Shown here: positions 20,101-25,860 of the stretch, piece after piece
Position numbering within the stretch: the first letter of the stretch is position 1
Layout: every line of letters begins with the position of its first letter
DNA from: Tubiluchus corallicola
Taxonomy: Eukaryota; Animalia; Priapulida
Length of the DNA stretch: 64,000 nucleotides
Assembly (NCBI GenBank): GCA_030141605.1
Contig: JAQGDQ010000794.1
Coordinates: 1-64,000 of the forward strand
Direction of reading: 5' to 3'
The notes under the pieces: model-generated
Databases searched by the model: none
Seen by the model: the letters and a program-made list of their open reading frames with translations, nothing else
Told to the model about the DNA's origin: nothing
Program-made: the position numbers and the translations under genes

Positions 20101-23100
20101 CTTGTGTAGCTATAGTCAATTCTTACTGTAAATGTTTTTGTAAATAGTGTATATAGTTTGTTGTGATAGGATCCTATATCAGGCCTTTTAAACTGTCTGA
20201 TTCAAATCCTATAATAAATTATGTTTAAACTAAAATTATTCTACGAGCGTGTTGCACGTGTTTGCGGAACCGAAAATTGAAGTACAGTGCTACTGTAAGA
20301 TATTCAGTGTGTTGTAATAAAATAAGGCAAGTTTTACAATAAAAATTCAAATTTCAAATCTACCGCTGTCGAACGACTGTAGTTCGTCACTAACTAACAC
20401 ATCTGAACTGAGAGGTACAACATGCAGCTGTTTTTTTTTGTGCAATGCGTTTCCGAAATGCAAGGGCTAGTACACGCCTAACTAACAAATAGCGAAATGC
20501 ATGTAACAGCGAAGAACTTGTGGCGCGAACTGTAAAATTGTGTTTGTGTGGAAATAATTCTTTCACGTAAGTCATTTTTGAAAAAAAATAGTAAGTTTCC
20601 TTTTAATATTTTAAAGAGTAGATAGTTTTGACCTACAGTTCAAGATTTGGTCCGATTTTGTTTTAAATAGATCGACATCAATTTCTGTAAGACAAACTGT
20701 TAAGTAGATTTTTGTATTTTTTACACATGAGTTTCCTTAAGAAATCAAATGAAAGTATGTGCTTTGTTTGCTAGGATAAGTTTTGTTCGCTATTATATAA
20801 TGCTGATCTTTTGTAATAAACTGCTCTATGTTCACTAGTTTGTATGTATATGTATGTGTATGTAGATAGGGTTATCGTTTTTTCTGTTTAACTAAATTAA
20901 CTAACTCAAAGTGTTCAAATTAAAGTAAGAAAAAAGATTAAATATATAATATATATAATTTTTATATATAATAATCTTTATTCTATTTATTTAAATTTAT
21001 ATATATTTACTTATATATTTATTATTATATAAATATTTATATATTATTTATATATTTATATATATTTGTTTATAGTGTATATATATGTGCATATATATAT
21101 ATATATATATATATATAGTGTAATTATAATATATAATATATATTAGTACATATTATTATATATTATATTACACATATAAATAAATATTTACTCATTTATT
21201 TATTTATTTATTGGTATACAATTCGGATACAGACGCGCTAAATGACTGTCCCTTTCTAAGATATAGAGTCGTATCCGTATTTTAATCTAATATCATTTGT
21301 ATTGCAATATAGAGCTGATGTCCTAGCATTTACTGTAAATTAATCTTACTGCAAGTTTTTTTTCATATCAAAAGATAAAGTTTCGTTTTACAATTTACTA
21401 TTGATTTGATTCTGAATTACAAATACATGGAGCAGCATAATTTTTTCAAAGCTTAGTGCTTCTTGGTGCTTTTTGGTGCTTTAATCCACCCCCTGTAGTT
21501 AATGAACTTACTGTTCCTGCTGCCTCACGATTTTTTCCTCTTTTACCAGGTTTTTCTAGATTCTCTGACGACATAGAGAAAATGATTGGTTGGAGACCCA
21601 GTCTGTATTGGAAAATCTGCTGGAAGTTTGTGACTCCTTTAATTTTAACGGTAAAAATCGTGGAATAACTAATTGTGCCTTTTCATTACTTAGGTTATGA
21701 CTGTGAATACCAGAATGTTCATAAACCATTGTTTACTTGTTATTGTTTATTTCACAATAATTATAAAGCAAGGCCCTCTGCTGCAATTTCAGTTGTTAAT
21801 TATCCACGTAAAACAACTGAAATTGCAGCAGATGGCTTTACTTTACCCACATGTCACGTTACAGACAAGTGTTGTAGATAAGAATTGCGAAAACGCACAA
21901 AAGAAATATGAAAATTTAAACACAAAATTAAGGTAAAAACTAGCCAGAATCTTTTCCTGCGTTCCTCATGCTGATCATAACTACGGAACAGGTCTGATAT
22001 TCTCTCTTTAGTTTAAATTATTGAATTTAACTTGTATAATTGCATTCTTATTAACGTAGTATATGTTTCCATAGCGTTATATATGTATTTATTTACATCT
22101 TTGTACACACTGTGTGTATAGTGTGAATATTAATTGTAACTAGCCCAAGGAATACCACTAAAATCCAAACTCAAATTGTCTGCTTCCCAGGTGCCTACTT
22201 TAAATTTACCATATGAATTTCTTACCTTTTTAGATTTACCATATGAATTGTTTATCTCTTTAAAAACTAAGACATTATACTTTGGGCGTATGTCGCCATT
22301 CTCATCGAAAGTGATCACGTGACCCGGGTGACCTTCAAAACTAACGTTATACAAGTAGGATAAAAGATCATTCTCTGCCACACAGGCGCGGAGATAACTT
22401 CGGTCAACTCCAATACATTTTTCACTTATGAGGTCGTGCAATGCGTAAGCGAATGCATAGACACTTGCAATGCAGCTGTAGACGTAGTCAGGTGGTCCAG
22501 TAAAGTGAGGTCCAAGCTGGGAACCATGGCTAAAATCACAAGAACCATTTCTAATACTGCAGTGATGCACATGTTGCCAAAATTCTTGAAACAAACTGTC
22601 GCCGCCAAAATCTGCTGGAGTCCTGCTAAACCACCACTCATTGAAATCATCAACCGAAGTCGGCGACCAAGACCGAAATACTAGTAATCCGTTGGCCACT
22701 TCCTCAATTCCTTCAAATGATGCAGTTCCAGCACCATCGCTGCACAACCAGATGAACTTCTCTTGAACTTGTCTTTGGGCCAAGTTCTCCATAATGGAAA
22801 GCAACTGTGGTCGATACATAAATGCTATAACAACTCTTGCGTTTTTGTACTTTAGAAGCTCATCAACAATTTCGGAAGTTTCATTGTCGCCAAGAGAATC
22901 TGGTATTCTGCGAAAAATGGCCAAGCAAATTCCCATATCTTCAGCAATTTGGCGTATTCTCCTTGCAGGCGCGTCCCCGTAGCTGCCTTCTGCATAAAAC
23001 ACAGAAATGTATGTCCACTTGAAACGTTCCACAGTTGCCATTATGGCACTTACCTGGTCGTTATCTGGAGGGGTCATTCTCAAAAAATAGGGAAAATTAT

Positions 23101-25860: not shown

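What the first reader, a model, noticed from the sequence alone, without database searches (positions are those of the whole stretch)
22130..23659. Stand-alone, apparently secreted Venus-flytrap amino-acid-binding protein nested antisense inside an amino-acid transporter gene
Seen: an uninterrupted 509-codon ORF with a signal peptide and a full class C GPCR flytrap domain. It stops where the cysteine-rich domain would start and has AATAAA ~37 nt after the stop. No 7TM ORF appears downstream on that strand. It sits wholly inside SLC6 intron 21651-24494. Established: flytrap domains are homologous to bacterial periplasmic amino-acid-binding proteins (LivJ/LBP), which deliver substrate to transporters, and class C GPCRs normally continue into CRD and 7TM. 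Inference: this may be a soluble binding protein, scavenger or decoy physically linked to a transporter for a similar ligand, an animal analogue of a binding-protein/permease pair. Alternatively it may be a truncated retro- or segmental copy that has not yet decayed.
Basis: partly seen in the sequence, partly recalled or inferred. Interest (0 to 1): 0.85.

Follow-up and report, generated by a model that had tools for sequence, protein, structure and literature searches.

The report
Truncated receptor copy inside transporter intron
An intact reading frame for only the ligand-binding head of a glutamate-receptor-like protein sits backwards inside an intron of an amino-acid transporter gene; it is likely a young, cut-off copy of a normal membrane receptor that would be secreted if expressed, and nothing found ties it to the transporter.

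Summary
A 509-codon ORF (22130-23659, minus strand) encodes a complete class C GPCR flytrap domain. It lies in intron 21651-24494 of an open SLC6 gene, and the window holds no cysteine-rich or 7TM sequence. Its nearest relatives (one from Priapulus caudatus, 38% identical) are membrane receptors, and related genomic loci carry flytrap to TM4 on one exon, so the stop lies mid-exon. Signs of a young truncation: the cysteine that bonds the missing domain is kept; 93-100% identical sequence types occur in a DNA run; the stop and AATAAA lie in about 70 nt that also occur away from this ORF; no flytrap-only orthologue was found. For function: 51 of 54 conserved columns are kept, the stop falls in the short domain linker, and pN/pS is 0.43-0.59 (not significant). 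The pocket fits a non-glutamate amino acid. Nothing links it to the transporter; expression is untested. Odds: young truncated copy without a settled role 0.45, selected secreted protein 0.33, distant splicing or assembly error 0.15, transporter partner 0.05. The scan's earlier notes held no look-alike.

The parts
22130..23659 (-). 509-codon ORF: predicted signal peptide plus a complete mGluR-like Venus-flytrap domain, ending in the VFT-CRD linker
23588..23659 (-). Likely signal peptide, residues 1 to about 24
   Evidence: Hydropathy, predicted helix 7-21, alignment with relatives; no SignalP run
22925..22927 (-). Cys245, equivalent to CaSR Cys236, which bonds the cysteine-rich domain; here its partner domain is absent
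   Evidence: Cys in 102 of 102 CRD-bearing homologues; offset mapping to CaSR; C236-C561 passage in PMC4977154
22193..22252 (-). In-frame 30-nt tandem duplication (+10 residues against relatives) that holds a strong donor-like site with its GT at 22225
   Evidence: Sequence; segment of 34 residues against a median of 24 in 73 homologues; donor scan
22088..22093 (-). AATAAA, 37 nt after the stop codon; use untested
22071..22139 (.). About 70 nt holding the last codons, the stop and AATAAA; two contigs of run X1 match it up to 22139, and one runs on for 255 letters unlike the ORF
   Evidence: tables 2, 3 and 7
23681..23699 (-). Acceptor-like AG at 23681, 21 nt before the ATG; one X1 contig follows the window to 23699 and then diverges
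   Evidence: Sequence, table 7; a similar AG before the ATG in L002
21651..24494 (+). Host intron of the SLC6 gene (GT-AG)
6298..25860 (+). SLC6 transporter gene, 13 coding exons traced (further 5' exons not resolved); closest solved relatives are proline, glycine, betaine and taurine transporters

Best explanation
The ORF is an intact flytrap-domain reading frame that is likely a young, DNA-level truncated copy of a membrane receptor's large first coding exon, would give a secreted amino-acid-binding domain if transcribed, and probably has no settled role and no working link to the transporter around it. Shown: the ORF, its fold, its nesting, the absence of CRD and 7TM in the window, and membrane-receptor architecture in its nearest relatives. 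Inferred: a member of a recently duplicated mGluR-like family (likely in a priapulid-type animal) lost everything after the flytrap, either by partial duplication into this intron or by deletion in place. The break joined it to non-coding sequence that supplies the stop and an AATAAA. The event would be too recent for decay, so the pocket, the disulfides and the now partnerless Cys245 remain. Any product would likely bind a non-glutamate L-amino acid and might pair with full-length paralogues.
For: (1) The nearest relatives P0106 (Priapulus caudatus) and P0112 group with it at 0.999 support among 112 flytrap sequences and carry NCD3G and 7tm_3. (2) In genomic loci L001 and L002, flytrap, CRD and TM1-4 lie on one exon of about 700 codons. 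(3) No usable donor lies near Trp505; the best GT sites after codon 487 score -2 to -7 against -0.2 to 6.5 for the 12 SLC6 donors (recalled matrix). (4) Cys245 is retained although its partner domain is missing. (5) DNA run X1 holds overlapping sequence types 93-100% identical to the ORF; two contigs at 22316-22498 have 11 and 3 differences at depths 16.4 and 6.1, which suggests close paralogues. (6) The stop and AATAAA lie in about 70 nt that X1 also holds in another context. (7) 102 of 111 aligned homologues have a CRD motif, and none of the 9 without falls in its clade. (8) Nesting typically arises from young duplicates entering long introns (PMC5174743, abstract).
Against: There is no decay at all: 51 of 54 columns conserved at 80% or more are kept, against 49 in P0106. 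X1 contigs show no stop or indel over the roughly 1,050 of 1,530 nt they cover. Of 31 listed differences 12 are synonymous, pN/pS 0.43-0.59; P is 0.02 without and 0.05-0.11 with transition bias, and this may reflect selection on the paralogues. The stop falls in a linker of about 12 codons within an exon of about 700, roughly a 2% target for a random break, although the finding was picked for looking complete. AATAAA this close has about 5% chance. The one internal insertion is in frame. The 22139 junction rests on two contigs and 30 visible letters, 13 of which still match the ORF ungapped (hand count), so an old diverged homologue is not excluded.
Confidence: 0.45

Rival explanations
1. A functional stand-alone gene for a secreted flytrap protein, born by truncation and now kept by selection. 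It would buffer or scavenge a non-glutamate amino acid, or dimerise with full-length paralogues and damp their signalling, independently of the host transporter.
For: Stop placed in the domain linker; likely signal peptide and no hydrophobic tail; AATAAA 37 nt downstream. Backbone-binding residues S156, S179, D199, Y227 and D308 and the internal cysteines are kept. No stops or indels in X1 types, and a synonymous excess. Precedents: mGluR8c (PMC7327935, passage) and GABAB1e (PMC3920572, passage).
Against: The partnerless Cys245 is retained. No flytrap-only orthologue among the hits examined. The synonymous excess is not significant once transition bias is allowed for. Two strong donor-like sites lie in the ORF (P 0.05 against codon shuffles) where L001 and L002 have none; a donor about 130 nt before AATAAA would tend to suppress that site (own knowledge).
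Confidence: 0.33
2. The ORF is one exon of a full-length receptor whose CRD and 7TM exons lie more than 22 kb away, beyond the window (for example spliced from the donor-like site at 22225, or a variable-ectodomain layout), or the truncation is an assembly error.
For: The 9-mer at 22225 is identical to real SLC6 donor 10230 and is in phase 0. Some family members do have introns inside or after the flytrap (L003, L005; tails of P0002, P0135, P0160, P0145). No X1 contig bridges 22140-22228.
Against: Sequence after 22225 still encodes the conserved VGTW...W end of the domain, so it does not look intronic. There is no donor after Trp505 and no CRD or 7TM in 22 kb downstream. The intron would have to span the whole 5' half of the SLC6 gene. 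X1 confirms sequence on both sides of the gap, and holes in its cover prove nothing.
Confidence: 0.15
3. The secreted flytrap protein works with the host SLC6 transporter, capturing its substrate and delivering or concentrating it, as bacterial binding proteins do for ABC permeases.
For: Physical nesting. [quoted passage not shown] The host is closest to proline, glycine and betaine transporters. Distant fold kinship with Peripla_BP_6, E 2e-10.
Against: Position is the only link. The ORF descends from GPCRs. Nested pairs show more divergent expression than other gene pairs in Drosophila (PMC5174743, abstract), although one C. elegans study reports induction of host genes by opposite nested genes (PMC12274878, listing only). 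SLC6 carriers bind substrate directly (own knowledge). Neither ligand is known.
Confidence: 0.05

Closest known systems
Priapulus caudatus 'metabotropic glutamate receptor-like' XP_014665419.1 (P0106) and the expanded invertebrate mGluR-like clade (Paralvinella, Lottia, Tubulanus, Bulinus, Liolophura records)
   Same: 38% identity over residues 31-505; shared motifs such as PGHVIxFDENG and LCxxCDVVG; one clade at 0.999; same backbone-binding pocket
   Different: P0106 continues into CRD and 7TM. This ORF stops 4 residues after the last flytrap Trp and has a 10-residue duplication.
mGluR8c and GABAB1e, ectodomain-only class C isoforms (PMC7327935 and PMC3920572, passages read)
   Same: N-terminal domain without a membrane domain; mGluR8c is described as likely secreted, GABAB1e as secreted and able to bind GABAB2
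   Different: Those are isoforms of intact receptor genes. Here no membrane exons lie within 22 kb, so it would be a separate locus; secretion and partner binding are untested.
mGluR class IV (PMC6307864, passages read)
   Same: Arg78 and Lys409 positions replaced while backbone contacts are kept
   Different: Class IV members are full-length receptors; placement against named class IV sequences was not tested.
EhVFT of Entamoeba histolytica (PMC12965686, abstract read)
   Same: Eukaryotic flytrap protein without a transmembrane domain
   Different: EhVFT is GPI-anchored and related to periplasmic binding proteins. This ORF has no hydrophobic tail and derives from GPCRs.
Bacterial LivJ/LivK (HAAT) binding proteins with ABC permeases (recalled)
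   Same: Type I periplasmic-binding fold; Peripla_BP_6 hit above its cut-off
   Different: The neighbour is a sodium-coupled SLC6 carrier, not an ABC permease; no operon-like coupling is shown; the lineage is GPCR-derived.
Opposite-strand nested young duplicate genes (PMC5174743, abstract read)
   Same: Short single-exon gene-family member inside a long intron of an unrelated gene
   Different: This copy is partial; its age and expression are not measured.

Membership tests
Class C GPCR (mGluR/CaSR type) | Venus-flytrap domain | tested here: met
   Pfam PF01094 E 1e-56; fold match
Class C GPCR (mGluR/CaSR type) | Cysteine-rich domain after the flytrap | tested here: not met
   None in the ORF or the 64-kb window; outside the window untested
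Class C GPCR (mGluR/CaSR type) | 7TM domain | tested here: not met
   None in the window; outside the window untested
Class C GPCR (mGluR/CaSR type) | Signal peptide | tested here: inconclusive
   Hydrophobic N-terminal helix; no SignalP
Glutamate-binding mGluR (classes I-III) | Amino-acid backbone contacts (mGlu1 S165, T188, D208, Y236, D318; numbers partly recalled) | tested here: met
   S156, S179, D199, Y227, D308; CaSR S147, S170, Y218, E297 by offset
Glutamate-binding mGluR (classes I-III) | Arg78 and Lys409 for the side-chain carboxylate | tested here: not met
   Leu71; Tyr392 or Asp391 depending on the alignment; role of the pair from PMC6307864
Glutamate-binding mGluR (classes I-III) | Groups with canonical mGluRs in a tree | tested here: not met
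   Lies in a 93-sequence clade (0.945) holding none of 9 sequences I picked as canonical mGluR-like; FastTree, rooted on two CaSR-like rows
mGluR class IV | Phylogenetic placement with named class IV receptors | not tested
   No labelled class IV sequence in the tree
Secreted ectodomain isoforms (mGluR8c, GABAB1e type) | Made from a gene that also encodes the full-length receptor | tested here: inconclusive
   No membrane exons within the window; the rest of the scaffold is not available
Secreted ectodomain isoforms (mGluR8c, GABAB1e type) | Transcribed and secreted | not testable with these tools
   No RNA holder listed
Binding-protein/permease pair (HAAT type) | Partner is an ABC or TRAP permease | tested here: not met
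   Host is SLC6/SNF
Binding-protein/permease pair (HAAT type) | Shared ligand, co-expression and docking | not testable with these tools
   No expression or binding data
Processed retrocopy | Loss of parental introns, poly(A) remnant, target-site duplication | tested here: not met
   The exon is intronless in L001 and L002 too; no A-tail seen by eye after AATAAA; an acceptor-like site is kept upstream
Opposite-strand nested gene | Wholly inside one intron of an intact host on the other strand | tested here: met

The most novel reading that the evidence does not exclude
An animal has turned a class C GPCR head back into a free solute-binding protein, encoded as its own gene inside the transporter it serves, where it captures a non-glutamate amino acid and feeds or gates an SLC6 carrier: a eukaryotic re-invention of the binding-protein/permease pair. 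The milder form, a selected stand-alone secreted flytrap gene acting as ligand buffer or decoy subunit with no transporter link, has a probability of about 0.33 and would merit about 0.55.
Probability: 0.05. Interest if true: 0.85.

Novelty: new variant of a known kind. Interest (0 to 1): 0.3.

Why it matters
If the best reading holds it is ordinary: a fresh partial duplicate from a fast-turning receptor family, useful only as a snapshot of how soluble receptor domains can arise. If it is selected, it would be a separate gene for a secreted class C ligand-binding domain. My searches returned such proteins only as vertebrate isoforms or as a GPI-anchored amoebal protein. A ready-made soluble domain also offers an easy way to find the ligand of a large invertebrate mGluR-like clade for which I found no ligand data. 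A working link to the SLC6 host would be surprising but has no support.

Tried and rejected
No whole genome is held, so paralogues, the scaffold beyond the window and synteny could not be examined. No RNA holder was listed; this is no evidence on expression. Run X2 (possibly RNA) matched only repeats in 21200-26900. X1 has no cover at 22140-22228 or 23085-23469; holes prove nothing.

Empty-site allele idea: neither of the 2 loose ends tested (of 3 listed) occurs in the window with up to 3 mismatches. The 70-nt flank has no second copy in the window.

Intron gain through the 30-nt duplication: rejected, since 28- or 31-nt introns are too short and break the frame (by hand). Decayed CRD after the stop: two shifted frames show a Cys-containing stretch, but the CRD HMM does not score it. 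Donor-like sites as a sign of decay: borderline (P 0.05 at score 6, 0.14 at score 4), and the 93% X1 contig lists no difference at the 23053 site, so this carries little weight. Two out-of-frame ATGs 11 and 19 nt upstream: L001 and L002 show a similar one, so not used.

ESM Atlas: the top cluster is 505 aa, 144 members, mostly molluscan, with no CRD shown, but it dropped out when clusters with any CRD, 7TM, channel, kinase or cyclase member were skipped. It is probably a mix with fragments; unresolved. A profile search found no closer relative. A metagenome scan gave 5 loci at 24-30% identity over long stretches, none in this clade by identity. The bacterial promoter scan is irrelevant to an animal gene. 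Rfam gave one weak tRNA-like hit that ARAGORN did not confirm. No complex prediction was run: a flytrap homodimer would pass by likeness to solved structures. Paper searches gave nothing new; searches returned 0 papers. No supplements were read.

Full report
1. Observation. The minus-strand ORF at 22130-23659 is 509 codons without a stop. Pfam gives ANF_receptor over residues 76-464 (E 1e-56) and Peripla_BP_6 over 145-350 (E 2e-10). Of 98 solved sequences matched, the best is mGlu8 (E 8e-59). An AlphaFold2 model built on a 24-sequence alignment has mean pLDDT 85.5 and pTM 0.87; Foldseek ranks mGlu5, mGlu8 and mGlu2 ectodomains first (E about 1e-38, TM 0.75-0.79). The eight most hydrophobic 19-residue windows all start in residues 1-13 (best 1.7) and the last 20 residues average -0.36, so a signal peptide is likely and a membrane or GPI tail is not; SignalP could not be run. 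AATAAA starts at 22093; 4.7% of random 50-nt minus-strand windows contain one. The host gene reads open over 13 exons and 632 codons, with an intron at 21651-24494 (several acceptor choices keep the frame, and the boundary at 17220 is uncertain). Two host exons match proline, glycine, betaine and taurine transporters best. TM1 has Gly where monoamine transporters have Asp (recalled), so an amino-acid-type SLC6 is reasonable; its substrate is unknown.

2. No rest of the receptor in the window. tblastn of 96 homologues found nothing outside the ORF better than E 0.15. HMMs for the cysteine-rich domain and the 7TM region, built from 102 homologues and run over six frames with stops as X, gave best window i-E values of 1.1 and 0.33, against 8e-23 and 5e-52 on control locus L002. 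The 22 kb downstream on that strand are therefore empty of these domains. Beyond the window I could not look, because no genome is held.

3. Relatives. The search of 50%-identity representatives gave 4,780 hits at E up to 0.001, of which 150 were listed. The best single-domain hit is P0106, a Priapulus caudatus 'mGluR-like' protein, 38% identical over residues 31-505. In a FastTree tree of 112 flytrap domains (hits under 1,000 aa, over 380 aligned residues and over 185 bits, plus 6 added weaker rows; all others left out), the ORF groups with P0106 and P0112 at 0.999. The next sister pair includes another Priapulus protein (0.873), all inside a 93-sequence clade (0.945) that holds none of 9 sequences I picked as canonical mGluR-like. 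This fits unchecked earlier notes that the genome is likely a priapulid. P0106 and P0112 both carry NCD3G and 7tm_3. Of 111 aligned homologues, 102 have a CRD motif; the 9 without lie outside the ORF's clade. P0002, P0135 and P0160/P0279 end just after the same motif with unrelated tails, as ORFs reading into an intron would (inference). In genomic loci L001 and L002 the flytrap, CRD and TM1-4 share one frame of 731 and 704 codons that ends at a donor after TM4; P0112 ends at the same place. L003 and L005 show that other members have introns within the flytrap. No donor is available after Trp505 (the matrix used approximate human frequencies from memory). The simplest reading is that this ORF is the first 70% of such a giant exon.

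4. Pocket and cysteines. By offset from the CaSR alignment range, S156, T177, S179, Y227, C245 and D308 correspond to CaSR S147, A168, S170, Y218, C236 and E297. PMC4977154 (passages) names S147, A168, S170, Y218 and E297 as L-Trp contacts and C236-C561 as the disulfide between lobe 2 and the CRD. The mGlu1 Arg78 position holds Leu71, and the Lys409 position Tyr392 or Asp391. [quoted passage not shown] Cys245 is invariant in 102 of 102 CRD-bearing homologues and is kept here without its partner domain. A long-established soluble protein would be expected to lose or re-pair it (inference); 8 of the 9 CRD-less hits also keep it, as fragments would. Cys142 and Cys145 lie next to the low-confidence loop (119-141) where mGlu1 Cys140 bridges subunits (PMC8310541, passage). 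The ORF keeps 51 of 54 columns conserved at 80% or more; P0106 keeps 49. It carries one in-frame 30-nt tandem duplication at 22193-22252, which makes the segment 34 residues against a median of 24.

5. A public DNA run. Two runs were listed, neither on record as RNA. X1 covers introns and exons alike, so it behaves as DNA of this or a very close species. Twelve contigs were laid on 22070-23800. Overlapping types are 93-100% identical to the window; at 22316-22498 two contigs differ by 11 and 3 letters at depths 16.4 and 6.1, against 7.7-12.3 for three near-identical contigs beside SLC6 exons. This suggests close paralogues, but depth is no copy number and high heterozygosity is not excluded. 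Of the 31 listed differences in the ORF (only those at least 31 letters from contig ends are shown), 12 are synonymous and 19 not, with no stop or indel. pN/pS is 0.43 without transition bias and 0.51-0.59 with it, P 0.02 and 0.05-0.11; 21 of the 31 are transitions, so the excess is not significant, and it mixes alleles with paralogues. Two contigs match the 3' flank up to 22139, within the last four codons, and one continues for 255 letters unlike the ORF; another follows the 5' end to 23699 and diverges. Neither loose end is found in the window. This hints that the stop and AATAAA come from non-coding sequence that also exists apart from the receptor. It is only a hint: 13 of the 30 visible loose letters still match the ORF ungapped (hand count), and no contig covers 22140-22228, so X1 neither confirms nor contradicts the join or the nesting.

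6. Weighing. For a young truncation without a settled role: membrane-receptor relatives, a mid-exon stop, the orphan Cys245, near-identical copies, the shared 3' flank, and no flytrap-only orthologue. For a selected secreted protein: no decay, a stop inside a linker of about 12 codons in an exon of about 700 (about 2% by chance before ascertainment), AATAAA at about 5% chance, and a mild synonymous excess. The two readings share the same origin and differ only in whether selection now keeps the product; the data here cannot separate them well (0.45 against 0.33). Splicing to far exons remains possible, because the site at 22225 equals a real donor of the host gene. However, the sequence after it still encodes the conserved end of the domain, and two strong donor-like sites arise in 5% of codon shuffles. 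The transporter link rests on position alone. PMC5174743 (abstract) reports that nested genes typically arise by insertion of short young duplicates into long introns and have more divergent expression than other gene pairs. PMC12274878 (listing only) reports host induction by opposite nested genes in C. elegans, so coupling is not impossible.

7. Known kinds and novelty. It works like, but is not shown to be, an ectodomain-only class C protein such as mGluR8c (PMC7327935, passage) or GABAB1e (PMC3920572, passage), which come from intact receptor genes. EhVFT is a GPI-anchored amoebal case (PMC12965686, abstract). It fails membership of class C GPCRs within the window, of glutamate-binding mGluRs and of binding-protein/permease pairs. 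Searches showed no paper on a stand-alone secreted mGluR-like gene in an invertebrate; the library lacks most subscription papers, and I read passages or abstracts only, no supplements. The scan's earlier notes held no look-alike by place, words or sequence; one search listed only prokaryotic proteins. Verdict: a real feature, most likely a young truncated receptor copy; interest 0.3.

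Noticed in passing
window 47636-57851: Tandem array of a unit of about 1.26 kb, about 8 copies at 93-95% identity. The unit examined carries plus-strand EGF-like exon frames, probably a recently amplified EGF-repeat region of a larger gene.
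   Followed up: partly
window 36100-44000 (+): Exon-like frames that resemble C-type lectin domains by eye; none of 6 tested reached a Pfam hit on its own. They may belong to the same gene as the EGF array.
   Followed up: partly
window 2239-2674 (+): Open frames about 3.6 kb before the SLC6 TM1 exon with cysteines, a Thr run and a hydrophobic stretch, then a charged segment; no Pfam hit. Possibly an extra N-terminal membrane segment of the transporter, or a separate gene.
   Followed up: no
window 21764-21845: 82-bp imperfect inverted repeat in the same intron, with high depth in run X1; MITE-like.
   Followed up: no
window 25975-26740 and 15114-15644: Dispersed repeat with very high depth in X1 and two copies in the window at 76% identity.
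   Followed up: no
window 34321-34564: Degenerate CCCTAA array, like an interstitial telomeric repeat.
   Followed up: no
window 47228-47299 (-): Weak Rfam tRNA match (32 bits) not confirmed by ARAGORN; perhaps a tRNA-derived SINE head.
   Followed up: partly
window 19408-19992 (+) and 61815-62420 (+): ORFs of 194 and 201 codons without Pfam hits that look by eye like transposon remnants.
   Followed up: no
window 13077-13180 (+), SLC6 TM6 exon: TM6 has Ala-Cys-Ala-Gly-Gly where GlyT2 has a Trp that narrows the pocket (GlyT2 motif recalled), which suggests substrates larger than glycine.
   Followed up: no
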